From contig NGBS01001166.1 in NCBI GenBank assembly GCA_002245135.1, positions 230,222 through 250,221 on the forward strand: 20,000 bases of DNA, given 5' to 3'. The notes under the pieces are model-generated. The model made no database searches and had not been told where the DNA came from. It worked only from the letters and a program-made list of their open reading frames with translations. Of the stretch, positions 1-20,000 are shown piece by piece. Each line of letters begins with the position of its first letter. The first letter of the stretch is position 1. Made by a program: the position numbers and the translations under genes. The DNA is from Proteromonas lacertae (Eukaryota).

Positions 1-3000
1 ATTTTCATAGAGGTCAATCACTATTTCTATTTTTAGAGAATGCCAAGAATATTGGATTTAAAGGTCATGTTGATTTACACAAATTATTGACATTGACACA
101 ATTTTCATTCAAATCATCAACTATTACCTTATTACCAAATCTAAGACTATCTAATAGAATATCACTCTCTAAAATAGATAATAGTAATAAATTTATTCCA
201 ATACAGAGTATTCCAGGAATTAATGGCATATATTATAGCGATATATTAGATAATCAATATGAAATGATATGTGACATAACAAACTACAATGATGAAGTTA
301 AATCAACTGATTATTACGTTATATTAATAACATATTTAACTGGAGATTTATCAAAATATGATTCAAGTGTTAAAACTGGATTAAAAATAGCATTAGAAAT
401 ATTAAACAATGATAATCCAATATTGAACAGAAATACTCATCCAATCTATATGGATGCAAATAGTAATAACTTAAATGATGAAATAATTCATTATATTAAT
501 TCATTTAATGTTATTGCTATTTATACTACAATGGAATTTACTGATTTTGAAGTATTTACAAATACTGCAAATGAAACAATATTTGAAACTCCATTTATAT
601 ATCTCAATCTAGTACCAAACGAAATAGTGAGTGATAAATACTTCTTAAATGGAATGAATATAGGAAATTTATGGAGAGAAACTAAAACAGCATTAAATCC
701 TAAAAACATATTCTTTATAGGCAGTAAAGGAACAGTATCAGCAAATGCAATATCTTATATATCCTATGATGCTTCATTGAATGGAATTAATGTTAGAGGT
801 AGTTATATATTAGATAGTAATACATACGAACATGCTGTAAATGCGTGTAATGAGATTGAAGCAGAATGTAAACTACATAGTGATTGTTATATTATTACAT
901 TTATGGAAAGGAATTATACTTTGAAGTTTTATGAAGAATATAAGATTGCAAGATTAATATATCCAATTGTGTCTTATAATTTAGATGAATTAATGATTAA
1001 TTCTGTTAATAAAACATATGTATAATTATATTTTTCTTTTTATATTGTATTTAGTATGAAAACCATTATGTTATTGGATATTTCTTCAATGAAATGGAAC
1101 TATCAGATGATGTTGATAATCGATTAAGCGATTACATTAAATCAAATTCATTTTATAAAGATTTTATTGTTACTTCAAACACAGCTATTTTATATTCAGA
1201 AATAATGCTATTATCATCTGTATATTATTGTATTCTAAATTATATGAATAGGTTATTGATATTACAAGGCAAATATCCAAAGAAAAGATTAAATATTCAA
1301 TGAAATATGGTTATGTAATAGGCATAGGAGGTGTAATAAAAGGAAATGATGAAGGATATGCTGATTTTAATGTTCATACAGGAAAGATTAGTAATGGAAA
1401 GATAGAAGAAATTAGTAAATCATTTTTTGTAGAAGTATCAGCTGTCTTTAGTGATTCAACCAAATATTATGATAGAGATTCAAACCAGATTAAAACAAGA
1501 GAAGTTAAGACAATATCTTTCTTATATGTGAGAAATGAAAAGAATGAAGATAGAATCAATCATTATGTATTATATGATTCATTTGTGATTGAATATTTGA
1601 ATAATCAATACAATGGTGTAGCTGGTTATAGAATAAGAACAGCATTTCCTGAATTATATAGTAATGAAGACTTAAAGAATTATGTTCAATCTGTTGCTAA
1701 TAGTGATGATTTATTGTTATTTGTTGGTACTTTGACTTTTGAAGAGAGAGAATCAATTCAACAGCTGTTGATTGATAGTAATAAGTTGTTATTGAGTATT
1801 CATCCTGCTGTTGGAAATCAATGTTATAGAAATATTATTCAAATATCATTTTTTTTCGTTTATTTTTAGCATTTATCTGTTTCTATAATTCTAGTTTATT
1901 TTGGAGTATTGCCTCAACATTATATATTTACAATTATTGCATATTGGTATAAACACAGTAATAATTGCATTATGATATATGGAGATAATGAAGTTAATAA
2001 ACACACAGCAAATTACACTTTAAAATACACTGAAGAAATAAAGAATTATAAATGTGTTGGTGTATATGTATCAGATAATTCAAATCTTACAGAAATCATT
2101 GAAAATGAAATTGTCAATAAATATACTGATGGTGCTGCAATAATAACAGCTTTAGATGAAAGAACAGAATCATTTCTAATAGAAATGAGTAATTATAGTA
2201 GCAGTAATAATTATCTTTATCCAATTATAATCACTGATTATATTGAATATAAATACTTCGAATTAAAATATAAAGAATATTATGAGAACGTTTATTTTAC
2301 ATCATCTTATTCATATCATTTAGATAATGAAGAAACAAGAACAATGTCAGAAACTATTACTAGTTACTATGGCAAATCAAAAGAACTAATGACAACAACA
2401 ACACTTACATTATATTCTGCTTTGAGACTATTTACTGAAAGTTATCCAAATAATTATAACAACAACAGCAATGAAATAAGATATAACATGTATGATACTG
2501 TTATTACATCTCCAATGGGTAAGATTATTGTTGATACAAGTAATCTAATGAGAATGTATACAATGATGATTCAGATAAAGAATAATAACAGTGAAATAAT
2601 ACTAAGTTCTGATTATAGCTATTATGAATCACAATTTGCAGATATTGTATAATTTATCATTATATATATATTAATAATAGTTTAATAATGAATATTTAAC
2701 ATGTCATTTTGAAGAAGGTTCAATATCTGATGTAATAAAGGAAGAGGTTCAAGAAATAGGTATTTGGCTTGAAGATGATGAAAGTGTTAGATTCACAGTT
2801 CAAGAATATCTCTATTATAATAAGTTCACATATGGAACTACTTATGTTGAAAAAACAGTATATTGTTCTGATGAAGAATCGATATTTAAAATGGTTAATG
2901 ATAGTTCAATATCATATATACTTTCAACATGTAATAGAACAGTCAATTCAAATATTGCTGAAGTTGCTAATGAGAAGAATGTAAATATATTCATTTTAGA

Positions 3001-3044
3001 AGATCAATATGAACCAATATGTGAAAAGAGATTGTATATAATAT

Positions 3045-3076
<32 letters not shown>

Positions 3077-6000
3077 GAAATAGTATGGTATTAGGATCTT
3101 CTCCTTCACAAAGACTCATTCCTCTAATTCAATATTTATTTACAGTAGTTGATTCAAATGTATATGTCATTATTCCACTTGCTTTCAACAATTCAATTGA
3201 AATTGATATGATACAAACCACAGTTGATGTAAATGGAGGTAAAGTAATTCAAATCCTATTCATTGATGAAGAAGATGATAGTAAAAATGTGGCAAATGAA
3301 GTGAAAATCAGTAGTTTAATAGCTTCAATTTATAGAAATGGCAATACAGGTGGTATTATACTCAATTACCTTCATAAATATGATAAATACTTATTTATAT
3401 ATCTTGAAAATATGTTAAAATATCATACGCTTGGTCAAAATGAAAAAGAATCTGAATTTATCATTGTTTCAATGGATATTGATAGAATCTTGGATATTGA
3501 AAATCCAAAGTTATTGGATAATCATGTTGCTTTAGGTGTGTCATACATAAGTAAAGAAACTAGTAAATTCTTATATGATATAAGTACAAATACATATGGA
3601 GAAGGAAATATATTAAAGAAAATAGAATCAAGAGGTTTAATTGCTATTGAATTTATATTAACTGTTAGTGTATTATTAGAGAATAGTGAAAATCATGATT
3701 TCATGGATTATATTCATATCAATGAGATTACCACATCTTTAGGAAATATTAGAATTGATTATGATAATTATTTTCCTTCAATAGTTTCCATATATGTTGC
3801 AAATACTACAAATATATTACATATAAGATATGTTTTATCCAACCAATGGCCTGGTGAAACTTATAGAATAACTTATCAAAATATCACATTATTTCCTTTT
3901 TGTGATGTTACAAATAAGAATAAAATTCAAGATAGATTGTCTATTAATGTCATTCTATTTGTTCCATTGCCAAGTAATTATAAATTAGAAGGATATAGAA
4001 TGTTACTCTCTTACTTATCAATAATTGATTATATTAACAAAAACTACAGAGTTAATGGGTTATATATAAATCCAATCGTTATTGATACAAAGGGAGGGTA
4101 TGAAATAGTTAGAGAGGTATTATCAAAGATGTCAATAGAATATAACACCAAAATAGCATTGGGAATTGATAATAGTTTGAATAGGAAAGAAATAGCAAAT
4201 GAATTAGATGATTATGATGTATTATTAGTATATCCAAATGATTTTGAAGGATATGAATGCAAAGAGAATATTATATACGTTGGAGTTCCATTTGCAGCTA
4301 AAGTAACTTACTTACCATGGATCTTAGGTCATTTAAATAACAAAATTTATGTTGTTTATACAGATTCATATGATAATGATGTTATTTCTAAAATGATTAG
4401 TCATGAGTTGAATTTAAGAGGATATTCTATTGTTGGTATTTCAAAAGTACCAGAAACTAATTATATACTAAAAGAAGTGGTCAATATGGTACATATGAAG
4501 ATGAGAAATGGTGGTGTAATATTATCATTCTTAAAAGGAAATGCAGCTAAAGAATTATACAAAGCATGTTATGATGAAGATATTAAATATCCAAATTACT
4601 ATATTATAAGCGATAATTTGAATGTAGCAAATATAAATAATGATGAAGGAGTGTATATGATGAATCATTATATATGGAATACTTATCCTGAAGAGTATTA
4701 TGATGTGGAAGAATATGTTAATGTTTATAACAACAAGTATACATTCATTACAAATCATACAACTAGTTTCGTTCCTGCATTTCTTTCTGTTAAAATATTA
4801 GCATTAGCATTTCAACATATTACATTCAATGAGAATTATTCTTCTGCTTTTACAGTTGATTCTATTCTCAATAAAGTTCATAATGTTTCAACATCACAGA
4901 TTAAAATATATAACAACAATTTCGCATCTTTTACTTTGAGTATAAAACAGATTAAATATAATGAAACTTCAAAACAGTGTTATGGAGATATAATCTATAA
5001 ATATCAATCAAATTCAGAACCAAATCCTTGGGCATCTACTTACAATCTAAATGGTAAATTTATATGTGATTGGAATGAATCAAATCCAAATAAAAATGAA
5101 ACAATTCCAGTGGATGCTGTTTCAATTGCATTAGTATTTCCATTAAGTGATCTGGAATTAGGTAGTTATGCAACTGATATATTAGAATCAGCCATATCAA
5201 CATTATCTGAAATAAATGATAAAAATGGAGGTGTTAATGGTTTGTATATTGATTACATTGTTTTTGATTATAAATATGAAACTGAATCAATACTAACTAA
5301 GATTGCTTATGATATATTAGAGAATGAAAATATTGTGTCTGTTTTTGGATGTTTGAGTGAAACTTGTAAGAATATTATTTCCAGTATATTGCAACAGAAA
5401 TCAATTTCATTATGGTATCCAGGAACAGCATATTGTCTCAGATATGATATCTAAAATTGGTAATATAAGAACAGCAGTATTCTTTTATTTAAGTGGATCT
5501 TTATCATCATCAGTTTTACATGAAATAGAAAATCAAGGTATTAGTTTATCTACAGTTAATCTAATTCTAATGAGATTTTCAAAAGCTGATTATTCAGATG
5601 AATTATTGATGAAATTATCAGGAGCTTTAATACCAGCAACTTATTCTTCAGATTTATCAAGTCCATTAGCAAGATCATTTCAATCAGATATGAAAGGTGG
5701 ATTAGGAAATACAGTAGAAATACCAGAAGAAATGGAATATGTATATTCAGCCTTGCATTTATGGAAAAATAGTTTAGAAACTAGTATAAAAGACAGTGGA
5801 GGTGATATAAACCCGCCAATTGAATATATTCGATTGAATATGATTGATAAAACATTTACATCTCCATCTGGTCCAATGATCTTAGATAAAACATTATATG
5901 TAAAGAGAAGTATGTATGTATTTAGAGTTAGTGATGATGGTAAATTTATTCAAATATATCCAAAGACAGGATCAACTGTATTATATGATCCAATTCCATA

Positions 6001-7248
6001 TCCAGATGGTGTTCCAGCAGAATGTAATTTTGGTAAAAAGAAAGTATATTTTGAATATAATACCATGATGAAAGCTGTTGCTTATGTGTTAATGAGTATT
6101 GCAATAGTTTTATCATTTTGGTCATTGTTATTCACATATGCATCAAGAAATAAAATGATTATTAAATCATTTGGTAGATCTTATAGTTTTATATTTGCAG
6201 TACAGTTGTTGATACTATCATTAGCAGTAATACCAATGGCAATTGCACCAACTAAAAGTAATGGGATTTGCACAGCAAGAGTTGTATTCTTAGGTTTATG
6301 TGTAAAAGGAGTGTTAGGTTTAATGATAGCTAAATGTATGAAAATATATAACAGATATAGAAGATTGAAAAGAAACATTAAAAAGAGTAGAATAAAAATG
6401 GTTAGATTATTATTTACTTGGTTGTTTTTTGAATTATTAGAATCATTAATATTGATATTGTGGTTTACTTTAGATCCAAATGAATATGAAGAAACGTATA
6501 GTCAATCTCTCAGTGGTTATTTTTTCGATGAGTATATTAGAGAATGTACTACATCAACTCCATTTTTGTATATAATATCTATTATATATTTCATGAATAT
6601 ATTTCTAGAATCGTTGAATTTATTACTGATGGAATTCCATTAATAATTCTGTTATATATCACTAATGTAATAAAGAATAAAATTAATGATCATAATGAAG
6701 GAACAGCAATGTTTATTTCTAGTTGTGTGATATATATCTTTTTTTCATTAACATTTATCTTGTTATTAGCTTCATCTTAATGTTTTTTACCTGTTTTTGG
6801 TGTTGTTATGACTGTATTAGATTTTTATGTTAATTCAGAACCTAATACTGTTTTGTTATTAAGAGCAATGGGAATTGAAATTACTCAAATTTTAATGATT
6901 ATGTTACAATATGGAAATATCTTTTTTTTTACACAATTTTCTTAATGATGTTATTTAATTCTATTGTTTACTAAAAATGATTAATGTTTATATTGATGAT
7001 GATTCAAACAGAATAACACAATCAGGCAGCCAAGCAAGTAAAACTGAAAAGAAATATCCTTTTCATATCTTATTCATCCTATTTATTTTCTTAATTTATT
7101 CAATCTGTTAGATTCTTCCCATCATTCTTCTAACTCTCAAAACAAAACTCAAACCTCTACATTCCTTACATCACACATGAAATCTATGTTTACAACATCT
7201 ACATTAAATGCAATTACAAAAAATCAATCATCAAGGAAGTTGTTATAA
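1..7248 (+). CDS. Giant class C-like GPCR: >=5 tandem UrtA/AmiC-like periplasmic-binding (Venus flytrap) domains + 7TM; 5'-partial; one internal frameshift/deletion near 5430
   Basis: Hand-spliced exons: <3-1019, 1055-1219, 1252-1842, 1900-2646, 2681-3033, 3084-6567 (frameshift ~5430), 6609-6733, 6791-6916, 6972-7053, 7104-7248. GT-AG introns 1020-1054, 1220-1251, 2647-2680, 3034-3083 and 6568-6608 each restore the frame. UrtA/AmiC-like motifs: LSEINDKNGGVNGLYIDYIVFD, VFGCLSETCK, LLVYPNDFEGYECKENIIYVG, SPSGPMILD, EPNPW..ICDW. Class C 7TM motifs: IIKS (ICL1), CTARVVFLGL..LMIAKCMKIY (TM3), LILWFTLDP (TM4), ECL2 Cys, HNEGTAM before TM6, LQYGIK at the end of TM7. Confidence 0.85.
1843..1899 (+). 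other. Probable U12-type intron, AT-AT termini, 57 nt
   Basis: Starts ATATCATTTT; branch-like TTCTATAAT at 1881-1889; ends TTTAT. Removes the in-frame TAG at 1867-1869 and gives CYRNIIQ|FGVLPQH, matching the repeat copy ECKENIIYVGVP. Confidence 0.7.
3050..3076 (+). repeat. (TAT)9 microsatellite inside GT-AG intron 3034-3083
   Basis: Directly visible; explains the poly-Tyr in ORF 2891..3094. Confidence 0.9.
6734..6790 (+). other. U12-type AT-AC intron, 57 nt
   Basis: Starts ATATCTTTTT; branch-like CATCTTAAT at 6773-6781; ends TTTTAC. Removes the in-frame TAA at 6778-6780 and gives continuous TM6 SSCVISVFGVVMTVLDFYV. Confidence 0.85.
6917..6971 (+). other. U12-type AT-AC intron, 55 nt
   Basis: Starts ATATCTTTTT; branch-like TTTTCTTAAT (6937-6946) or TTATTTAAT (6951-6959); ends TTTAC. 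Restores the frame to LQYGIKMINVY, the class C TM7/helix 8 junction. Confidence 0.85.
7054..7103 (+). other. Probable U12-type intron, AT-AA termini, 50 nt (alternative AG acceptor at 7111)
   Basis: Consensus U12 donor ATATCCTTTT; branch TTTTCTTAAT at 7086-7095. The AA acceptor at 7103 opens a Ser/Thr-rich tail (NLLDSSHHSSNSQ...SSRKLL, stop 7246-7248). Confidence 0.65.
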
Positions 7249-7302
7249 TAATTGTTTTATTTTTATTATTTTTAGTATTAAACACACAAAATAGTCAAAT
7301 AA

Positions 7303-10300
7303 CTATTTAATATTATAAAAATGGTTTGATAATTCTTTCTTTAATTCTTTACCAATTCCATCTATTGTTATTGATTTAAGTGATGAAAACGATTTTAAAA
7401 ACGATACTAATTCTAATTTATCTATCTCTTCTTTTATTGTTATTGTTAATAGACTTAAACATTCAAACACTTCTTTGTCTTCTGTCATCAATCTTAATTC
7501 TTCTTCATTTAACTTATTTCCTGATAGATTTATCTTCTGCAATGGCTTATGAACTTTTAATCTTTCTATTAACATTTTTAATCCTCTTTCACTCATTCCT
7601 ATATCTATTTCAATTAAAAAACTATGTTATATTCATAAAATACTTGAAATATTTAATATTAATGAATAATTATCATCAATAAATTTATCAAAATTTTCAC
7701 AAATAATCTCTATTCCTTCATCTCCAATTGGATTGTTAAATATTGAAATATAATTTAAATCTTTTGGTATAGATTGAATTAATTCTGATAATCCTTTATA
7801 ACTGATATGATTATTGGATAAATCAAGTGTTTCATAATCAATCTGTTTTATGATGGGAATGTGAGAATCATTGATATTTAAATCTATTGCATTATATACC
7901 TTGATTTAATACTGGATAAATCATAGTATTTATACATATCACTTTTTTTAGTACAATAGTCTAGATAATACTCCAATTCTTTATTTTTCCAAGATGAATT
8001 TTTCATCTGAATGAACGGATATTCTTCATTTTCTAACGATTTTGAACATATTGATTTTAATCCATTCATTTTGATATTATTCTCATTGAGATTAATTACA
8101 TTACACTCTCCAATTAAATATAATATATCTGTAAACATTACGGCACTTTCATCATTTATTGATGTATTACTCAAATTAAGATCACTGTCTATCATTATAT
8201 CCAACTTCTCTTCCAACAATTTTAATCCAATATTACCAATCGGATTATCTATTACACAGAATAATAAAGATTATATAACAATATATATATATATATATAT
8301 ATACTGTTAATAATTAATTGTTCAATATTATCATTCTCTTTCACATAATTCATTAAATAATCTATACCTTTTGAATCAATATTATTATCAGCTAAATCAA
8401 GTACTTCAATCTTTTCATCAGCAATTCTTAAACCATCAACTAAATATTTCATTCCTAATGACGATAATCCCATTTCTATAAAACATTTATAAAACAACAA
8501 ACTATACTCGAACAATTCAGATAACTTCCTAATAAATGGATATGCAGAGATAAAATTCTCATTCCTTCATCTCCTATTTCATTTTCATATAATTGAAGTT
8601 CTTTTAGATTTGGAAATGAAGATAAATTGTTTATCAGTATTTCTACACTTTCACATGTCAGATTATTATCTAAACAAATGGAAATTTAAAAACATACAAC
8701 TCAAATCTAACACTTCTATTTCTTTAAATTCATTTAATCTTAAAGTAATGAATGATTTGAAAAAATCATCATTAATTCCACAATGATTCAGATTTAATCC
8801 ATTATTTTTGTATTTGACAAATTTAATTAACTCTGGAATATCTTTGTCAATCAACAATTCTTTATTTCTTCCATAAATATCAAATACTATTTTTGAAATA
8901 GAAAATTTTGAGAATACTGCTTTTAATCCACTAGAATAAATATCCCAGTTGTATGTAATATTTATTTTCTTTAGATTTGGATATTTAAATAACTCTTCTG
9001 ATAATATTATCATTGATTTATCATTTAAATTCATTCCACAAAGATTCAATTCATTCTTGTCATTTATTAATAAATGAAATATGGAATTAATAATTTGAAT
9101 CCTATTGGACCAATTGGATTATCTATTTCATAATAATCAATACAAATAGAAAAAAATCAATACATTCAAGATTTACATATTTAAGTTTCATAAATGGAAT
9201 TGATTTTACAAATGATTCTATAAAACGATATGTAAGATTACAACTACATAAATTCAACTCTTGCAGATTTGATATTTGATTATATAATGCTCCAAATAAA
9301 GGCTGGTATCTGATCTGAATATCAAGAATTTCTAAACAAGTAAATAATACTACAATAATACCAAATTTTAGTTTTTTAAAATTGGATAGTTTTAGTAATC
9401 TAAAAAAATAATCCATCCCTTCTTCACATAAACAAACACAAAGTTTATTAGCAATGACTCTTTCATTTAAATAATGAAGAAGGAGATTGAAAATCATTTC
9501 ATCTAAACAACAAATCTTGTTTTCTTTGTTTTTGTGATAAATTTGAAATTTCAGTTTATCTTTTATTGATTCATCTCTTTTGATTAGTTTCATCATTAAT
9601 AATATCGATAATATTCTATCATTTGGTTTATTGTTGTAAGATTCAATCAAACCATCTCTCATTAATTCATTCTTATTATATTCTATATAATAGTCTCTTT
9701 GAGTATCTAATGGAGTTATTTCTAGTAAATAATCATTATTGAAGAATGTATATTTTCTTTCATTATATATCATTATATTATTATTTTCATCTCTAAATAT
9801 TTCACTCACTTTTATCATTTCTTTTCTCAACTCTTTTAAACTCAATCTTTCTTCATTCTTCACATTCAACATTCTCTCCATCATCTCTTCCATCATATCA
9901 TCACATTCTACATCTATACGATATTTACATCTCAGAATTTTATTCAGTGTTCTGTTGATATTATTATCTTCATTAAATGGTAATTTTTTGTTTATCATTT
10001 CATATAATATACAGCCAATAGACCAAATCACACTTTTATCATTACATTCTAATCCATTCAATTCTTCAGGGCTTTTGAAGCAGATATCATATAATCTTAT
10101 ATCTTCTTCTTTTCTCAATGTGTTTAAAAACAAATCACAGATCTTTATTTCACCTTCACTTTCATATACTATGTTACTACTCTTCAAATTGTTTATTATT
10201 ACATCATATTCACTCAATACCACTAATATATCACATATTGAACATATAATAGCACAAATATCACCAGTTATCAACGAATTATTATGAATTATTTCTTCTA

Positions 10301-10599
10301 AGTCTCTTTCATAATATTCTCTTGACAATATCATATGATCACCATATTTATTCATCTCAAACACTTTTGAAGGATATAATAACGATTTACAACTATCTAA
10401 CAACAAGGAGTCAGTCTCATAGAATTTTAATATATTCTTTTCTTTTATATCACTAACATTTAACATTTTCAATTTTTTAATATTACTTCCATATTCTACA
10501 ACTATATCTACTTCAGTTACACTCTTTTCTATTCTCTCTTTTAGCTAATAATAATAAATCAATAAAAATACATCTGAATTTGAGGGTAATATCGAGGAT
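7303..10599 (-). pseudogene. Protein kinase-like (probable pseudokinase) + RNI-like leucine-rich repeat gene; 5' end apparently interrupted by the Polinton; frameshift near 9080
   Basis: Exons 10599-10572, 10544-9362, 9331-9164, 9122-8698 (frameshift), 8669-8508, 8475-8305, 8248-7913, 7883-7644, 7604-7303, joined by GT-AG introns of 27, 30, 41, 28, 32, 56, 29 and 39 nt. Kinase motifs: INNLKSSNI, IKICDLF, SPEE, IWSIGCILYEM, ERLS. LRRs: LKELQLYENEIGDEGMRIL, IEVLDLADNNIDSKGIDYL, LQKINLSGNKL. Confidence 0.8.
8281..8303. repeat. (AT)n microsatellite inside minus-strand intron 8249-8304
   Basis: Directly visible; explains the IYIYIY runs in the ORF track. Confidence 0.9.
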
Positions 10600-10700
10600 A
10601 GTAATAATAATAGTAAATAAAGGTTCTGGCACACCGAGCCGTATGACTCGGGCTCCTGGCACACCGAACCAAACTTTTTAAAATTACGTGACATATGTCA
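10600..10700. repeat. Putative left terminal inverted repeat (inner boundary unknown); candidate 6-bp target site GAGGAT at 10594-10599
   Basis: Begins 5'-AG(T) with a short tandem repeat, as Polinton termini do. GC-rich patch with direct repeat CTGGCACACCGA (10626-10637, 10656-10667) and perfect palindrome TGACATATGTCA (10689-10700). Confidence 0.7.
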
Positions 10701-11775: not shown

Positions 11776-14700
11776 ATGAACCCTTTCATCCCTCCTTATT
11801 ATTATTATTCAAACTTTAATTATTATAGTCCACCACCATTTGGAGCACCTTATATTCCTCCTCCACAAAATTATGGATTTAATCCCATGCCCATGCCATA
11901 TCCAGGTATGGCACCTCCTAATATGTATGAACCACCTCCACCTATTCAAAATATTCCAGTAGTTAGAAATTATGTTCCACCAAGAAATCTAGTTACAAAT
12001 ACAAATCCTGGTTTCAATTATTATCCTGGAAATATAGGAGTAGATTCAACACCTCAAATTAATATTCCTGAACCAGGATTTGTAACACCACCTCCCAAGA
12101 GAAGATTAGATTTCGAAAACATAAGTCCTCCAAAAATACAAAGAAAAGGAGGTATGCAGGTTCAAATGCCTAATCCAAATCCTAATCCAAATCAACCTGT
12201 TGTTGTTGTTAATCAACCTCCACCAAATGCACAACAGCGTAATAGAGTAGCTGATTTAAATTTATCTTATCAAGAAGAAAGAGATTTAAGAGAAGCAAGT
12301 GATATATTAGAAAATCATCCTACTAAATTATTAAAATTACCATATGAAAAGAGATTATATTATATGGACTTAATTCAGAGAAGTACAGATAATTATAGTA
12401 GAACATATCAAATTAACTTTTTAAATGATGTAAATGGTAAAGATCCAGATGCTGTTGTTGAAATTATAACTGATCCTAGTAGCCCATTAATTACTAAAAT
12501 AAGAGAATATTTAGAAGATGTTAAATATATAAAAGTAACATTAAGTTTTAGAAGTGGTTATATAGGAGCAGACGATCCAGATTATAATAATCCAAATGGT
12601 AATAAAATTACAAATTGGGTATTCTTAGAATGTAGACCTGTAGTTATTACAGAATCAGAAATGAATGTTGCACATAAAATATTAAAAGATAGAATAAGAA
12701 CAGAAATGGGACCTTTATGGCATACTGAAAAATCAAGTTTAAAATTTAGACATGTTGGTGAAGTTGAAGTTCAATTAGTCAAAGCAACTGCTATGGCAGG
12801 TAGTGGTAAAAATAAAGAACTTCCAGATTGGATTAGAAATAGAAAATGTGTTATATCAATAGATAATAATAAAGAAAATGATCAATTATGTTTTCTATAT
12901 GCTATAGCAGCAGCATTTTTTCATGGTAATAATAATAATAAGAATTTAAATAGAGTAGAACAATATAAAGAATATATTAGAGTTAACTACAATTATAGTA
13001 TGTTATATTTCCCAGTAGATCCTATAAAACATAAAAAACAAATTCATGAATTTGAAACAATAAATCATATAACATTAAATATATTCAAAATAACAGATAA
13101 AGAAGTAGTTCCAATATATGTAACACATATAGATAAGTTCAATAATTATCCACATGTGAATTTATTATATAATGATAAACATTATTCTACTATTACAAAA
13201 TTAAATGTAATATTAATACCTAAAGGAAAGAAGTGTAAAAATGGTTATCCTAGATGTAATTATTGTTTTGCTTTATTATCAACAGATGAAAAAAGAATAC
13301 AACATGAAAAATATAATTGTCAACAACATAAAGGTATTATAAGAAATTTCCCTGAGAAAAATATTCAATTAGAATTTAAGAACTTTAAATATATGCAACT
13401 AATACCTATAGTAATATATTGGGATACTGAAGTTTATCAGGAGAAAGTAACAGATCCAATTTTAAATGAGAAAGGTATTTTATCAAAGCATATATTATCC
13501 AGTTGGTGTTTATATGTTGTATCAAAATATCCTAATATATATCCTAATAAAATTGAGTATGATTTTAAAACACCTAAAGATAATGAAACAGATTTAGAGG
13601 ATAGATTAATAGCTAAATTTATGGAAATACAAAAAGAAATATTAGATTTATATGAAGAAAAATTAAAAAATCCTGAAAAAATGATAGGATATAATAGAGA
13701 AGATCCTAAAAATAAATTGAATTATTGCATATACTGTAAAGAACCATTTGATTATAGGAATAAGAATAAGAAACCTGTTTTACACCACGACCACTTTAGT
13801 GGACAATATATAGGTAGAATATGTAATAATTGCAACTTCCATGTATGTTTAAATAATATGCCAATCCCTTGTATTGCTCATAATTCCAAAAATTATGACA
13901 ATAATTTCATTATTAGAGGATTGTCCAGATGGGATAATAAGTTAAGAGATGAATTTTGTAAAGAAAATAATATTGATCCTAATGTAAATTATGCTTCAGA
14001 TACTGAATCTGATAGTGATACTGAAGAAGAAGATAATACTAGTTATACTAATTCTATTCCTGTTCCACATCAAGATAGTGATACATTTACTCCATTACCT
14101 CCTTATACTAATGGCTTTATAACAGCAAATAAAATAAAAGATTATGTGAAAAATTTAAGAAAAGAAAAACAAGAAGAAAAAGATGATAATAATAATTTCA
14201 GTATGAGTCCATTACATGATTCTTTAAGTGATATGGAAACTCAAGAAGCTGAAAGTGAAGTAATCCAAATTAATAATGAAGAAGTTAATGCATTGTTAGA
14301 ATTAGAAGAAATGTTAAGAAGAGATAGTCCTAGAAATGCAGAAGATGTTATAGATGAAATAGATGAACAATCTGCTTATAGAATTATTAAATGTAAAGAT
14401 GGTAAAATAAGAAAATATAAAAACAAAAAACAATATAAATCACAATTATCAGTATTACCCAAAACAGATAATAAATTTTTATTAATAAAGTTCAACAAAT
14501 TATACTTTATGGACTCTTATCAATTCTTACCAAGTTCTTTAGATTCTTTAACAAAGTCATTATATACTCAAGCAAAAAGAGATAATGGAAATTATCAAAA
14601 ATATTTCAGTTATGTATATGAAGATATTTATAAAAAATATTCTGCTCCTGGTAAATTGGATCATGATATGAATATTGATGCTTTTATCCATAAATGGTGT

Positions 14701-16692
14701 TTATCTAAAGGATATTTTCCATATGAATATGTAGATTCATTATCTAAATATTTTAATACTTTTGAACTACCTCCTAAAGAAGCATTCTATTCAAAGTTAA
14801 AAGATGATAATACTGTAACAGATGTTGAATATGCTAGTTGTCAGGCTTTATGGAAAGTTATTAGATGTGATAACTTAATGGATTACAATTTATTTTATCT
14901 CAGATTAGATGTTCTTACATTAACATGTGTATTTGAACATTTTAGAGATGTTATATGGAATAATTTTACTTTAGATCCATTATGGCATTGTAGTTCACCT
15001 GGTTTATCTTGGAGTATATTCCTTAAAAATTGTGATGTAAAAATTGATTTAATAAGTGACTCTGATATTTATGACTTTATACATTCTGGATTAATAGGTG
15101 GGATTTCTATGGTTGGTAGTATGAGATATGCAGAGTCTTGGAATCATTATCAACCTCAATGGCAAGAGAAAAATAAAAAGGAAGTACAGGATCCAGATAA
15201 TCAAACATATATTATGTATATGGATTATAATTCTTTATATCCAAGTACTATGGCTAGCATGAAGTTACCATATAGTGAATTTGAATGGATTGAACCAACT
15301 ACTGAAAATGTAAAGAAAATATTATCATTACATTACTATGAAGAACAAAGAGAAAAATATTACAATACAGAATGGATTAATAAAAATATGTATGGATATA
15401 TTCTAGAAGTAGATATTTCTCCTCCTAGTAATAGTAATGAAAGAAAAAAATTTGCTGAATATCCTTTGTTACCTGAAAGAAAAATAGTTGACTATGATAA
15501 TTTATCTGAAATACAAAAGAAATGGGCAGAGTCTTTAGGATTAGTTTCAGAAGTTAAAAATAATATTGATAAAACATATAAAGTTAAAAAGTTAAAGTCA
15601 AATGTTCCTAAAATAGTATGTGATTTAACAACAAAATACAACTATGTTGTTCACTATCAATATTTGAAATTTGCATGTGAAATGGGTTATGTTATACATC
15701 ATATTCATAGAATTATCAGATTTAAAGAGTCTAATTATGCACATAACTTTGTAATGATGAATCATAACTTAAGAAGACAAGCTAAATTAGAAGGAAGGGA
15801 TGCCGATGCTGATACTTTTAAGCTTATTCTAAATAGCGCTTATGGAAAGACATGTGAAAATACTGAGAATAGATGTACCTCCAAATTGGTTAATAATGAA
15901 GAAGACTTTTTACAGTGTACTTCCAATCCATTTTATAGAAGTTTTATTGCTATAGATAATAGTAACTTACGTATATGCAAATTTCAAAAATATAAATGCA
16001 CTATTGATAAACCATCTTATATTGGTATGAGTATATTATGTGAATCTAAAAGGTTAATGGCTCAGTTCTGGTATGGACATTTATATAGGAAATATGGGAG
16101 TAGTTTAAGATTATTGATGAGTGATACTGATAGTTTCATATTTATGGTTCAAACTAGAGATTTCTATATGGATATTATGAACGATCCACATTTTGAAAAG
16201 AAAGTTGATACTGGTAATCTTAATAAACAATACTTAATAACTAGAGGTATACACTATTCAAATGTTAATCAAAGTTCAGAACTTAACTTATTAAAAATAG
16301 AAGAAAATAAGAATGGTTTATACTCTATTACTAGATTTGCAGGATTAAAACCTAAAATGTATGCCTATGAAAAAGTAAGAGTAGACGATGATATACATTG
16401 TGTTACACATGATAGTAGAGCTAAAGGAGTTACAACTGGATATAGAATTAAAACTTGTGATTTTGACTTTTATAGAAAAATATTAACAGATGCTGAAGAT
16501 GAAAAGTCTTACAGAGTAGATAAAATCAAACAATATAGTTTCAGAAGTGTTAACCAAACTTTATATACTATGGAACAAAATAAGTTGGCTTTTAGCATAT
16601 TTGATTCTAAAAGGTATTATTTAGATGTTTATCATAGTATTCCTTTTAATGATTATTATCCACCTATTATTAATAACACTACTAATGTTTGA
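11776..16692 (+). CDS. polB: Protein-primed family B DNA polymerase (pPolB) polyprotein with OTU-like module, Zn finger and endonuclease VII/HNH-like Zn insert
   Basis: ExoI IYWDTE, ExoII HNSKNYD, MDSYQFLPSSL, KGYFPYEY, ExoIII YLRLDV, motif A MDYNSLYPS, motif B KLILNSAYGK, motif C SDTDS, KMYA, KGV. N-terminal LCFLYA...KHY; CNYC..H...C; CIYC..HHDHFSG..CNNCN. Confidence 0.95.
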   Translation: MNPFIPPYYYYSNFNYYSPPPFGAPYIPPPQNYGFNPMPMPYPGMAPPNMYEPPPPIQNIPVVRNYVPPRNLVTNTNPGFNYYPGNIGVDSTPQINIPEPGFVTPPPKRRLDFENISPPKIQRKGGMQVQMPNPNPNPNQPVVVVNQPPPNAQQRNRVADLNLSYQEERDLREASDILENHPTKLLKLPYEKRLYYMDLIQRSTDNYSRTYQINFLNDVNGKDPDAVVEIITDPSSPLITKIREYLEDVKYIKVTLSFRSGYIGADDPDYNNPNGNKITNWVFLECRPVVITESEMNVAHKILKDRIRTEMGPLWHTEKSSLKFRHVGEVEVQLVKATAMAGSGKNKELPDWIRNRKCVISIDNNKENDQLCFLYAIAAAFFHGNNNNKNLNRVEQYKEYIRVNYNYSMLYFPVDPIKHKKQIHEFETINHITLNIFKITDKEVVPIYVTHIDKFNNYPHVNLLYNDKHYSTITKLNVILIPKGKKCKNGYPRCNYCFALLSTDEKRIQHEKYNCQQHKGIIRNFPEKNIQLEFKNFKYMQLIPIVIYWDTEVYQEKVTDPILNEKGILSKHILSSWCLYVVSKYPNIYPNKIEYDFKTPKDNETDLEDRLIAKFMEIQKEILDLYEEKLKNPEKMIGYNREDPKNKLNYCIYCKEPFDYRNKNKKPVLHHDHFSGQYIGRICNNCNFHVCLNNMPIPCIAHNSKNYDNNFIIRGLSRWDNKLRDEFCKENNIDPNVNYASDTESDSDTEEEDNTSYTNSIPVPHQDSDTFTPLPPYTNGFITANKIKDYVKNLRKEKQEEKDDNNNFSMSPLHDSLSDMETQEAESEVIQINNEEVNALLELEEMLRRDSPRNAEDVIDEIDEQSAYRIIKCKDGKIRKYKNKKQYKSQLSVLPKTDNKFLLIKFNKLYFMDSYQFLPSSLDSLTKSLYTQAKRDNGNYQKYFSYVYEDIYKKYSAPGKLDHDMNIDAFIHKWCLSKGYFPYEYVDSLSKYFNTFELPPKEAFYSKLKDDNTVTDVEYASCQALWKVIRCDNLMDYNLFYLRLDVLTLTCVFEHFRDVIWNNFTLDPLWHCSSPGLSWSIFLKNCDVKIDLISDSDIYDFIHSGLIGGISMVGSMRYAESWNHYQPQWQEKNKKEVQDPDNQTYIMYMDYNSLYPSTMASMKLPYSEFEWIEPTTENVKKILSLHYYEEQREKYYNTEWINKNMYGYILEVDISPPSNSNERKKFAEYPLLPERKIVDYDNLSEIQKKWAESLGLVSEVKNNIDKTYKVKKLKSNVPKIVCDLTTKYNYVVHYQYLKFACEMGYVIHHIHRIIRFKESNYAHNFVMMNHNLRRQAKLEGRDADADTFKLILNSAYGKTCENTENRCTSKLVNNEEDFLQCTSNPFYRSFIAIDNSNLRICKFQKYKCTIDKPSYIGMSILCESKRLMAQFWYGHLYRKYGSSLRLLMSDTDSFIFMVQTRDFYMDIMNDPHFEKKVDTGNLNKQYLITRGIHYSNVNQSSELNLLKIEENKNGLYSITRFAGLKPKMYAYEKVRVDDDIHCVTHDSRAKGVTTGYRIKTCDFDFYRKILTDAEDEKSYRVDKIKQYSFRSVNQTLYTMEQNKLAFSIFDSKRYYLDVYHSIPFNDYYPPIINNTTNV

Positions 16693-16776
16693 AACTTTTA
16701 TATTTCTTTTTATTATTATATTTTTATATTATTATTATTTCTTTTGTTTTCTTTATATTATAAAAAATAAAAAATA

Positions 16777-18144
16777 ATGTATTTCGGATGGGATCCTGCT
16801 AAAGCATTTTTTAATACTATGAATGATGTAGGTAACTTAATGGATAAAAATATACAACATTTACCTAAACAACCTAAATATCCTGAATCATTGCAATATT
16901 ATATGAATTATGGTAGAGATGGTATACCTAGAGAACCTCCTACTACTGACTATAAATTATATCCTAATCCTGAATATTCTCAATATCAAAATCGTTTACA
17001 ACAACTATATAATAAATATCATTATTTAAGTGATAGAGATTTTATTAAAATGGTAATGAATCCTGCAGATAATAATGAAGTACCACCACCTATAGATGCT
17101 ATAAAAGAATTTTTAGCTAGACAACCTGGTCATCAAATAGTAGACTTTCAGTATAAAAAGGATAATCCTTTCGTTAGTATTAAAAAGCCTGGTTGGTTCC
17201 AGATGGATATAGTTTATTTTTTACCTGAAACACATCATCTGTATTTTATTGAAACTAACTCTCGAAAAGTATGGGTAGTACCTTTGAAAAGAGAAGATGG
17301 AAATACTTGTTTAAATGCTTTCTTTTCTTGGTATTATAAAGAAGATCAAGAAGCTTTTTTAAATCCAAACTATCAACCTAATATAGTAGCTAAAAGAAGA
17401 GTTATTAGTATATTAAGTGATCAAGATGATAGTTTTAATAAAATAAAAGAATTTTGTGATACAGAAGGTATAAATACTTATCAAAAAAATCCTTCAGAAC
17501 ATAGAATAATGAGTGTATTAGATAGAAGTGTATCTATGGTTAAAAAACTATTATATAAACATCTTGTTGAAATAGACTTTCCTGATCCCTTTCGTTATAG
17601 AAATCAAACTCATGCTAAAAGCTTTCCACCTAGTGCATATATGAATCAGTGGCTTACTAACTTTAATCATGAAGTATATAAAGTAGTACAAGACTATAAT
17701 AATAAACCTCATCCTGCATTAAAAGGATATACTCCTAATGAAGTATATCATTCTGAATTACTACAGAAAAGAGTATTAGTTGAAAGCATAAATAAAAATG
17801 TAGATAATGAATTTAAACTAGAAGATAAACAACGATTTAAAGTAGGCGACTATGTTAGATTTAAAGAAAGAAGAAGACAATTAGATAAAATAACTACTTG
17901 GAGTGATGATGTTTATATGATTATAAATAAGTTTAGATTTTCATATCAAATAGGTGATACTAATGGTAACTTTGTACCTAATGTTAGTAATCAGAGGTTT
18001 AAGCATTATGAATTAGAATTAGTAGAAAGAGCGCAAGATAGAAATGCTTATTTTAGAGCGTATCAAGCAAACAGAAGATTTTATAATCAACATTTTAGAA
18101 AAACATTAAAAAGACCAGGACTCAAAAGAAAGGGAATAGTATAA
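16777..18144 (+). CDS. int: Retroviral-like (rve/c-integrase) integrase of Polinton type
   Basis: WFQMDIVY, ILSDQDDSF, VLDRSVSMVKK, YNNKPHPALKGYTPNEV, C-terminal SH3-like FKVGDYVRFK..WSDDVY..ELELV. Confidence 0.92.
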   Translation: MYFGWDPAKAFFNTMNDVGNLMDKNIQHLPKQPKYPESLQYYMNYGRDGIPREPPTTDYKLYPNPEYSQYQNRLQQLYNKYHYLSDRDFIKMVMNPADNNEVPPPIDAIKEFLARQPGHQIVDFQYKKDNPFVSIKKPGWFQMDIVYFLPETHHLYFIETNSRKVWVVPLKREDGNTCLNAFFSWYYKEDQEAFLNPNYQPNIVAKRRVISILSDQDDSFNKIKEFCDTEGINTYQKNPSEHRIMSVLDRSVSMVKKLLYKHLVEIDFPDPFRYRNQTHAKSFPPSAYMNQWLTNFNHEVYKVVQDYNNKPHPALKGYTPNEVYHSELLQKRVLVESINKNVDNEFKLEDKQRFKVGDYVRFKERRRQLDKITTWSDDVYMIINKFRFSYQIGDTNGNFVPNVSNQRFKHYELELVERAQDRNAYFRAYQANRRFYNQHFRKTLKRPGLKRKGIV

Positions 18145-18154
18145 TATATATTCC

Positions 18155-18176
18155 ATTAATTAATTAATTAATTAAT
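18155..18176. repeat. Self-complementary (TAAT)n tract between convergent genes; candidate bidirectional 3'-end signal
   Basis: ATTAATTAATTAATTAATTAAT is a perfect 22-bp palindrome between the integrase stop (18144) and the minus-strand stop (18180-18182). Confidence 0.55.
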
Positions 18177-18179
18177 TAT

Positions 18180-19427
18180 TTAAAGTTCTGATATTTCAAT
18201 AAGTGCTCTGCTATTTACAGGCACTTTTGATAAATTATTTCCTTCTTCTGGAGGAGGAGGAGGTTCTTCTTGTTTAATTTTGGGTTTTGGAGTTTCTTTT
18301 TTTTCTTTAATAATATGGTGTTCTTTTGAAACTCTTCTTCTTTTGTTATATTTTCTATCTTCTTCATAATCACTATCATGATCACTATTATCACTACTAC
18401 TACTACTACTACTATCACTACTAGAACTATCATTTTTCTATATCAACATCTTCATGAGGGAATTTCTGGATATTTGAATGTAGACCATCTATATATATTT
18501 AATTTCTGTTTTCTTTAGAAAATACCACTTTTCATTATTTGATTTAGCATCTTCCTGAAAATTTTTGAAAAATCACCTGTAAATTGGAATATGTAATGTG
18601 CTGAATTTGGCAAATATTTTTATATTACTATTAACATATTTTATTTCATCACAATTAGTTACAGCTATTGTTACTATATTATTTTCTAAAAATTGATTTT
18701 GAAATTCTATATTATTATGTAAATTCATTATATAAGTTGTTGGTAAATATTTCATATAATCATATAAATCAAATTGAAAATCATTAATTAATACATTGTT
18801 ATTTGAATTAAATTTTATCTGGATTTTAGATGAAGTAAAAATTATTTTGTATTTATTTATTAAATTCCTATATTGATAAAAAAAGTATTATCATCCAAAA
18901 TTTTATTAAGAGGAATAGTATTTTTGCAGAATAATGAATTAATTTTACTTCGTGTATTTGTTTTACGATTTTTTGCATCCATATACTTATCTTTTAAATA
19001 AATAAAAATTTCTTGATTTGCAACAAAGGATAAACTATAATATTCTGGATTGTCATCACATATATAAAATTTAGTATATTTACTTTATTTTTGTAATCAC
19101 AACTATATTTGATAGTTGTCCATATATAATTAATATTATTTTTGAGATTATTATTATGTTCCTTAATATATAATTTGATAGGATTATGAATAAACAAAAT
19201 TTGAAATATCTTTCATCCATAATATAAAAAGGAATTTCACAAGACCATGTATAAAAATGTTGACCTCTATTCATATTAGTAACTATTTTTAAACACATAA
19301 AAGTGTTGAATAAGAAAATCCAATTTCGATACCCAGTCCAACTGTGGGTATCTTCATATGCAATATAATAATTGCCTTCCATGTATTTTTTGACACAGGA
19401 ATAATCAACACCAATATTTCCAGACAT
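18180..19427 (-). pseudogene. Single ~410-codon hypothetical ORF broken by several frameshifts/stops; Ser/Asp-rich, basic and poly-Pro C-terminus
   Basis: Fragments 19427-19198, 19197-~19070, ~19070-18880 (FYICDDNPEYYSL...KYMDAKNRK), ~18878-18573 and 18437-18180 (NDSSSSDSSSSSSDNSDHDSDYEEDRKYNKRRRV...EEPPPPPEE) can be chained; the first three joins each need one extra base in a homopolymer run. Confidence 0.55.
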
Positions 19428-19583
19428 TTTAACTAATTATAATTAAAAAATTATGTAAGTGTTTGCTATTATTATATAAAATAATACAACTAATAAAAAC
19501 AACAAAAATATTTAAAACAAATACAGAAATAAAGAATAATATTTTTATGAATATCAGTAAATATAAAAAATATTTATATATAT

Positions 19584-20000
19584 TTATATAATATATTTAT
19601 ATTTTTTGAAAGACTTTTTAAATAATTCAATTTGTTTTTCACCAGTCTGAGTATTAAAATTAGTGCTTTGCTTAAAACTTTTATTTTTCTTTAATATATT
19701 TTCTAAAAATTTTATAGCAAAAAATCCACAATTTGATGTTGTGGACTTTTGATTTTGAATAGCATTAACTTTTAACTCATATTCTTTATTTTTGTTTCTT
19801 TTGAATTTTTTAATAGTATTTTTAAATGTTTCAAAATTCTTTGGATTTTCTCCAAAAGAATCATAGTATAAAAAATTGTTATGAACATTATCAATCACAA
19901 GAGATACCCAATGACCTATTTCATCAGGTTTTGCAGATGTATTTAAAGTGTTAATTATTATTCCCCATCTATTTTTAGATGTATTTATTGGGAGGACTAA
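19584..20000 (-). CDS. pro: Adenain-like (clan CE) cysteine protease, virion maturation protease; 5'-partial
   Basis: Frame open to the window edge: WGIIINT...IGHWVSL...YYDSFG...IQNQKSTTSNCGFFAIKFL, containing the His, Asp, Gln and Cys catalytic residues. Confidence 0.9.
   Translation of the reverse strand, partial: LVLPINTSKNRWGIIINTLNTSAKPDEIGHWVSLVIDNVHNNFLYYDSFGENPKNFETFKNTIKKFKRNKNKEYELKVNAIQNQKSTTSNCGFFAIKFLENILKKNKSFKQSTNFNTQTGEKQIELFKKSFKKYKYII

What the first reader, a model, noticed from the sequence alone, without database searches (positions are those of the whole stretch)
1843..1899. Non-canonical AT-AT intron with a degenerate donor (ATATCATT)
Seen: ORFs 1300..1869 and 1909..2652 share a frame and are split by one TAG in a T-rich stretch. 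A 57-nt AT-AT excision gives NIIQFGVLPQH, in register with the other repeat copies. Known: the minor spliceosome tolerates AT-AN termini at low frequency. Inference: together with the probable AT-AA intron at 7054, this lineage may have relaxed 3' dinucleotide and +6 donor requirements, with the acceptor set by distance from the branch point.
Basis: partly seen in the sequence, partly recalled or inferred. Interest (0 to 1): 0.7.

Follow-up and report, generated by a model that had tools for sequence, protein, structure and literature searches.

The report
Rare AT-AT minor-spliceosome intron
A receptor-like gene of an AT-rich eukaryote holds a 57-base stretch that begins and ends with AT, at a spot where related genes also carry an insertion; it is likely an intron removed by the minor spliceosome, a rare but already known intron type that likely arose from an ordinary AT-AC intron.

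Summary
The intron at 1843-1899 is well supported by comparison, though not by RNA. Related genes carry an insertion at the same codon boundary: 54 nt in one ortholog group and 73 nt (not a multiple of 3) in another, so it is not coding. All 13 homologs without an insertion place a proline five residues after the boundary, as the AT-AT excision does. The in-frame GT-AG alternatives remove conserved residues. Frame-shifted read-throughs in orthologs reveal the bases: one ortholog ends in AC, another has the canonical CC at donor +5/+6. The window copy is therefore likely an old U12-type AT-AC intron whose last base became T and whose +6 became A. AT-AT minor introns, AT-AC/AT-AT switches between orthologs and acceptor choice by branch-point distance are published. 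A lineage-wide relaxation is not shown. Two side findings: 4 of 10 introns modelled in this gene look U12-type, and the gene lacks about 3.7 kb with a frameshift near 5440, so this copy may be broken or misassembled. Verdict: real, a new member of a known kind, modest interest.

The parts
1843..1899 (+). U12-type intron with AT-AT ends, 57 nt, phase 0 (splicing inferred)
1843..1851 (+). U12-like donor ATATCATTT, with A at +6 where ortholog P0079 has C
1882..1890 (+). Predicted branch point TTCTATAAT, A's 12 and 11 nt from the 3' end
   Evidence: motif only
1898..1899 (+). Acceptor AT; the ortholog decoded from P0006/P0046 has AC
1252..1842 (+). Upstream exon, ends CYRNIIQ; 26 of the last 30 residues identical to P0006
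1900..2646 (+). Downstream exon, starts FGVLP; Peripla_BP_5 match E 3.4e-7; 21 of the first 24 residues identical to P0006
1..7300 (+). Host gene: class-C-GPCR-like receptor (repeated Peripla_BP_5 domains plus 7tm_3); 5' end outside the window; about 10 modelled introns
5434..5446 (+). Break: about 1,240 codons present in P0001/P0002 are missing, with a frameshift (real deletion or misassembly)
6734..6790 (+). U12-type AT-AC intron, 57 nt, phase 1; P0001 runs into a matching N-I-F-F read-through and stops at this place
6917..6971 (+). U12-type AT-AC intron, 55 nt, phase 1 (motif and frame only)
7054..7103 (+). Probable U12-type AT-AA intron, 50 nt, phase 2; acceptor not fixed (7094 AA, 7104 AT and 7111 AG are alternatives)

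Best explanation
Bases 1843-1899 start and end with AT and sit where related genes also carry a non-coding insertion; they are likely a U12-type intron, descended from an AT-AC intron, that the minor spliceosome would still remove. Inferred mechanism: U11, then U6atac, pair with the donor despite the +6 mismatch, helped by the T-run that follows. U12 pairs with the TTCTATAAT branch site. The acceptor is the A-N dinucleotide 11-12 nt downstream, so C-to-T at the last base is tolerated and the AG 5 nt earlier (1893-1894) is too close to be used. Splicing is probably less efficient than at a consensus site. Shown: sequence, conserved position, ortholog bases. Inferred: splicing itself, snRNA pairing, direction of change.
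For: (1) Ortholog P0006 (75% identity) and its cluster: 14 of 14 listed members that span the site carry an 18-codon segment from I-S to Y at the same boundary. Identity is 26/30 upstream, 21/24 downstream and 8/18 inside. (2) P0046 enters that segment and leaves in another frame; 22 codons fit P0006 at offset -1 and at most 1 at any other offset tried, fixing the last codon as TAC behind a TTTTCTTTAAT branch site. (3) P0079 reads K-Y-P-F across the donor where the window reads K-Y-H-F, so +5/+6 are CC; its segment is 73 nt, not 3n, and ends in TAY. (4) P0050 (I-S-F, then stop) and P0085/P0087 (Y before LGRLP) show the same boundaries in a more distant ortholog. (5) Of 32 profile hits, 16 matched the boundary pattern; 13 run through with no insertion, and all 13 have P at +5, as the AT-AT excision gives. 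(6) No stop in 2,273 modelled codons although 6.2% of point changes would make one; two neutral hits falling only in the 44 signal bases has P about 0.009, so decay after the gene broke is unlikely to explain the odd sites. (7) AT-AT and AT-AC/AT-AT switches are documented (PMC1557818 Tables 2-3).
Against: No transcript or lariat evidence. No ortholog DNA was obtained: ortholog bases are decoded from single predicted proteins (P0046, P0079), and AC and +6C come from different orthologs, so no single canonical ancestor was seen. P0079 and P0085/P0087 end in TAY, which may be AT. Donor (+6A), branch site (3 mismatches to the consensus) and acceptor are all off-consensus together, whereas human minor donors are almost invariant over nine bases (PMC13602164 section 3.5). 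The host copy has a 3.7-kb gap with a frameshift, so it may be under no selection now. A base-calling error at 1899 or 1848 cannot be excluded without reads.
Confidence: 0.8

Rival explanations
1. The intron is a real ancestral U12 intron, but this gene copy is a recent pseudogene and the damaged sites are no longer spliced, or are spliced without consequence.
For: About 1,240 codons missing with a frameshift at 5434-5446. The neighbouring kinase-LRR gene has two apparent frameshifts. Three off-consensus signals in one intron.
Against: 0 stops in 2,273 codons: neutral drift large enough to change 2 of 44 signal bases would give about 19 stops (uniform mutation model). Identity to orthologs is an even 70-77% on both sides of the gap.
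Confidence: 0.08
2. The T at 1899, or the A at 1848, is a sequencing or assembly error in a canonical AT-AC intron.
For: Orthologs show AC and +6C. The window has one large unexplained junction and two apparent frameshifts. No reads could be laid.
Against: A 1,638-codon polymerase ORF and 2,273 modelled codons carry no stop, so base errors are rare. Two errors in one 57-nt intron would be needed to restore both sites.
Confidence: 0.05
3. The major spliceosome has taken over, using GT at 1823 and AG at 1894 (72 nt, in frame): a U12-to-U2 conversion that shortens the protein by five residues.
For: The pair is in frame and canonical. P0066 and P0072 may have GT donors at the homologous place (V after the boundary, then stop).
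Against: It removes CYRNIIQ, kept as CFKNILQ and CYKNILQ in orthologs and needed for the register in 13 of 13 insertion-free homologs. The donor GTTATA differs from the GTATA start of the five upstream GT-AG introns modelled in this gene.
Confidence: 0.05
4. There is no intron: the segment is a hydrophobic coding insert and the TAG is read through or reassigned.
For: The segment is 3n in the window and 3n without a stop in the P0006 cluster.
Against: It is 73 nt in P0079, shifted by one base in P0046, and ends in a stop in P0050. Identity falls inside it.
Confidence: 0.02

Closest known systems
Non-canonical A-type (AT-AN) U12 introns of human and mouse (PMC1557818; PMC8280824)
   Same: AT-AT ends (6 in human, 6 in mouse, Table 2) and one-base AT-AC/AT-AT switches between orthologs (ERCC5, Gpaa1, Zc3hdc6, Slc9a8, Table 3). 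AT-AN is a recognised class. Branch-point distance of 11-12 nt is within the 11-13 nt optimum.
   Different: Here the donor also has +6A and the branch site is degenerate; the intron is only 57 nt in a 25% GC eukaryote; no transcript evidence.
Expanded, transformed U12 system of Physarum polycephalum (bioRxiv 10.1101/2020.10.12.336362)
   Same: Donors with C or T at +6; many non-canonical ends (AT-AA 27%, AT-AT 8% of non-canonical U12 introns); branch site close to the acceptor.
   Different: Physarum has over 20,000 minor introns, a TTTGA branch motif and a co-evolved U12 snRNA. The branch sites here are TTAAT-like, and genome-wide counts and snRNAs are not available.
U12 introns of Blastocystis ST1 (PMC5608401; PMC10639083)
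   Same: Short (mean about 42 nt), 77% AT-AC, 49% phase 0. Tortoise isolates have 21-23% GC and longer, variable introns (PMC12129017), like this window (24.7% GC, modelled introns 28-57 nt).
   Different: ST1 has about 1% minor introns (346 of 35,412) against 4 of 10 in this gene. That the window is Blastocystis is a guess; no call identified the organism.

Membership tests
U12-type (minor) spliceosomal intron | Extended donor RTATCCTT | tested here: inconclusive
   Window has ATATCATTT, one mismatch at +6; ortholog P0079 has CC at +5/+6.
U12-type (minor) spliceosomal intron | TTCCTTAAC-like branch site about 11-13 nt from the acceptor | tested here: inconclusive
   Distance met (12/11 nt) but 3 mismatches; the decoded ortholog has a closer match, TTTTCTTTAAT.
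U12-type (minor) spliceosomal intron | AT-AC, GT-AG or AT-AN/GT-AN ends | tested here: met
   AT-AT in the window; AC at the end of the ortholog.
U12-type (minor) spliceosomal intron | Position conserved, and the segment non-coding, across homologs | tested here: met
   Same boundary in three ortholog groups with lengths 54/55 and 73 nt or a stop; absent from 13 homologs.
U12-type (minor) spliceosomal intron | Removed from the transcript at these ends | not testable with these tools
   No reads could be laid; see Tried and rejected.
U12-type (minor) spliceosomal intron | Depends on U11/U12/U4atac/U6atac encoded in the genome | not testable with these tools
   No genome held; 0 Rfam matches in the window.
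U2-type AT-AC-like intron (major spliceosome, AT ends) | U2-type donor after the first two bases | tested here: not met
   ATATCA, and RTAYCC in P0079, match the U12 donor and not the GTATA[AT] donors of the five upstream GT-AG introns of this gene.
Physarum-like expanded, relaxed minor-intron system | Minor introns a large share genome-wide, with frequent non-canonical ends | tested here: inconclusive
   4 of 10 modelled introns in one gene, 4 of 16 in the two host genes of the window, 2 of 4 non-canonical; no genome.
Physarum-like expanded, relaxed minor-intron system | Compensatory changes in the minor snRNAs | not testable with these tools

The most novel reading that the evidence does not exclude
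This AT-rich protist lineage is a second case, after Physarum, of an enlarged minor-intron system in which donor +6 and the last acceptor base are free and the acceptor is set by distance alone. In one gene 4 of 10 introns are U12-type, +6 takes three different bases, 2 of 4 ends are non-canonical, and a distant paralog may be AT-AT at the same position.
Probability: 0.2. Interest if true: 0.7.

Novelty: new member of a known kind. Interest (0 to 1): 0.3.

Why it matters
As a single intron it matters little: it is one more AT-AC to AT-AT switch, here in a microbial eukaryote, and a warning that annotation restricted to GT-AG would mis-model this receptor family. It would matter if the density holds genome-wide. 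Four of 10 has probability about 2e-6 at the Blastocystis ST1 rate of 1% and 0.02 at a Physarum-like 12% (assuming independent introns; clustering of minor introns in single genes is known, recalled). A compact genome with many short, degenerate minor introns would make it testable how U11/U6atac tolerate donor mismatches and whether minor introns are being gained.

Tried and rejected
Whole genome: none is held, so snRNAs and genome-wide counts were out of reach. RNA runs for 1-7300: none was listed, which is no evidence either way, and no reads could be laid. Ortholog DNA in metagenome contigs: 0 of 362 and 0 of 223 pattern matches were confirmed. Rfam: 0 matches in the window. Organism: two ESM Atlas searches returned generic kinase-LRR and periplasmic-binding clusters with uninformative taxa, and all listed cluster members are unnamed. 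Pfam on four short 3' exon pieces gave 0 of 4 matches, so it did not test the 6734, 6917 and 7054 junctions. Earlier scan findings: nothing in three look-ups. A full-text search for the +6A donor string with U12 gave 75 papers, 20 listed; by title none concerned natural +6A donors and none was opened for it. This does not show that such donors are unreported. Two primary mutagenesis papers on U12 dinucleotides and 3' site choice were not held and are cited only through reviews. Rejected junctions: AG at 1869 (27 nt, leaves 10 unconserved residues), AG at 1894 from the AT donor (52 nt, out of frame), and the GT-AG pairs (they remove conserved residues). No supplementary files were opened; intron lists in the supplements of PMC10639083 and PMC5608401 may show how common +6A donors are.

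Full report
Observation. The window is 24.7% GC. Bases 1843-1899 are 57 nt, start ATATCATTT, end AT, and contain the one TAG that separates ORFs 1252-1869 and 1870-2652 in the same frame. Excision at these ends is phase 0 and gives NIIQ|FGVLP. Many other pairs also keep the frame, among them five GT-AG pairs and one GC-AG pair, so independent evidence was needed.

Host gene. The + strand ORFs from 1 to about 7300 match Peripla_BP_5 repeatedly and 7tm_3 near the end: a class-C-GPCR-like receptor. A model with five introns up to 5436 and four from 5444 to 7241 has no stop in 2,273 codons. A tenth intron near 7242 is uncertain. Six are short GT-AG introns and four start with a U12-like donor: 1843, 6734, 6917, 7054. 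These are the only four matches to ATATC[ACT]TTT[TC] on + 1-7300, against 0.47 expected; 1 of 300 shuffles reached 4 (pattern chosen afterwards). The introns at 6734-6790 and 6917-6971 are AT-AC. The one at 7054 is probably AT-AA (7103) because that leaves a 48-residue S/T-rich tail, but another AA (7094), an AT and an AG are possible. Branch-like A's lie 12/11, 11/10, 14/13 and 10/9 nt from the four ends; a closer match to the consensus lies further upstream at 6734 and 6917.

Position is conserved. A search with the TAG read as X found one protein among 5,460 candidates, P0006, 75% identical. It is a genomic ORF that reads through an 18-codon segment starting I-S and ending Y at the same boundary. 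Its cluster has 16 members; 15 were listed, 14 span the site, and all 14 have the segment. Identity to the window is 26 of 30 residues before, 21 of 24 after, and 8 of 18 inside. The residues that the best GT-AG rival (1823-1894) would remove, CYRNIIQ, are kept as CFKNILQ.

Register. A profile search of 1.84 billion representatives gave 32 hits. Sixteen matched the boundary pattern (one extra spurious row was dropped). Thirteen run through with no insertion, and all 13 have proline five residues after the boundary, as the AT-AT excision gives; P0055 reads NIIQ|FG. Two (P0050, P0077) enter I-S-F and stop, and one (P0066) enters V-L and stops. P0072, seen by eye, also ends V-L-F at this place.

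Ortholog bases from frame-shifted read-throughs. P0046 follows P0006 into the segment and leaves in another frame. Its last 22 codons fit P0006 at offset -1, and at most 1 codon fits at any other offset from -30 to +30. The fit forces the last codon of the segment to TAC, behind TTTTCTTTAAT, so that ortholog ends in AC. P0079, on a contig of the same length as P0001's, begins upstream in a shifted frame and reads K-Y-P-F where the window reads K-Y-H-F, so donor +5/+6 are CC. Its segment is 73 nt, not a multiple of three, and ends TAY. P0096, a distant paralog, reads on into sequence compatible with M-N-A-x-x-N-Q if exon 2 starts one base into a Tyr codon. That makes the last intron base T, and AT if the Leu before it is TTA or CTA. 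The family proline is not compatible there, so this is a lead only. Each decode rests on one predicted protein; no ortholog DNA was obtained.

Results against a simple reading. Against P0001 and P0002 the window lacks about 1,240 codons at 5434-5446, with a frameshift and no intron to explain it. The copy is a recent pseudogene or the assembly is misjoined. Decay after such a break is unlikely to explain the odd splice sites: 6.2% of point changes would create stops, none is present, and the chance that two neutral hits fall only among 44 signal bases is about 0.009 (uniform model). Donor, branch site and acceptor are all off-consensus at once, which would likely lower efficiency.

Mechanism. 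Shown: sequence, conserved position, non-coding status in orthologs, AC and +6C in orthologs. Inferred from the known minor pathway: U11 then U6atac read the donor, U12 reads the branch site, and the acceptor is set by distance, which here falls on AT and passes the AG at 1893-1894. I put this at 0.8. Rivals: unspliced remnant in a dead copy 0.08, base error 0.05, GT-AG takeover 0.05, coding insert 0.02.

Known context. PMC1557818 (passages and Tables 2-3): 6 AT-AT introns each in human and mouse; AT-AC/AT-AT switches between orthologs; donor information decays from +6. PMC10639083 (passages and the section on non-canonical boundaries): non-canonical ends are about 3.8% of conserved animal minor introns, AT-AA first and AT-AT second; Blastocystis ST1 minor introns are short, 77% AT-AC and 49% phase 0. 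PMC3584512 (passages): optimum branch-to-acceptor distance of 11-13 nt; non-canonical ends often splice less well. PMC8280824 (passages): the AT-AN class, less efficiently spliced. bioRxiv 10.1101/2020.10.12.336362 (abstract and passages): over 20,000 minor introns among 175,198 in Physarum, with many non-canonical ends. PMC13602164 (abstract and section 3.5): human donors almost invariant over nine bases. PMC5608401, PMC12129017 and PMC11347168 (passages): Blastocystis minor-intron counts; 21-23% GC in tortoise isolates. No supplements were read. The organism was not identified; a low-GC Blastocystis-like protist is a guess from GC and intron style.

Verdict. The step from two odd introns to a relaxed lineage is not shown, since orthologs carry canonical bases at both odd sites. 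The lead worth following is the density of U12-type introns (4 of 10 in this gene, 4 of 16 in the window's two host genes), which needs the whole genome. Interest 0.3; the novel reading has probability 0.2 and interest 0.7.

Noticed in passing
window 5434-5446: About 1,240 codons (3.7 kb) present in P0001/P0002 are missing, with a frameshift; the 7TM half is out of frame with the ectodomain. Real deletion or misassembly.
   Followed up: partly
window 6734-6790, 6917-6971, 7054-7103: Three more U12-type introns in the same gene (two AT-AC, one probable AT-AA), giving 4 of 10.
   Followed up: partly
window 7303-10544, - strand: Kinase-LRR gene (Pkinase) with about six short GT-AG introns and two apparent frameshifts near 9070 and 8547. 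The second could instead be a 68-nt AT-AG intron (8543-8476, donor ATATCCAT), though that would shorten an LRR.
   Followed up: partly
window 11776-20000: Polinton/Maverick-like element (label recalled): intact 1,638-aa DNA_pol_B_2 ORF with a weak Endonuclease_7-like stretch, a 457-aa ORF at 16771-18144 that looks integrase-like by eye but had no Pfam or useful PDB match, and a C5/C48-like protease at 19584-20000 on the - strand.
   Followed up: partly
window 10622-10675: A GC-rich island in AT-rich DNA with a 15-nt direct repeat spaced 30 nt apart; possibly near the element's end.
   Followed up: no
P0066, P0072: Paralogs end V-L after the homologous boundary, which would fit GT donors at the same position and so a U12-to-U2 conversion; not verifiable without DNA.
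   Followed up: no
P0096: A distant paralog whose read-through suggests a last intron base T at the homologous position, possibly a second AT-AT case.
   Followed up: partly
P0001-P0005, P0049-P0075: A large unnamed family of receptors with many UrtA-like periplasmic-binding repeats ahead of a 7tm_3 domain; all listed cluster members come from unnamed Logan contigs.
   Followed up: no
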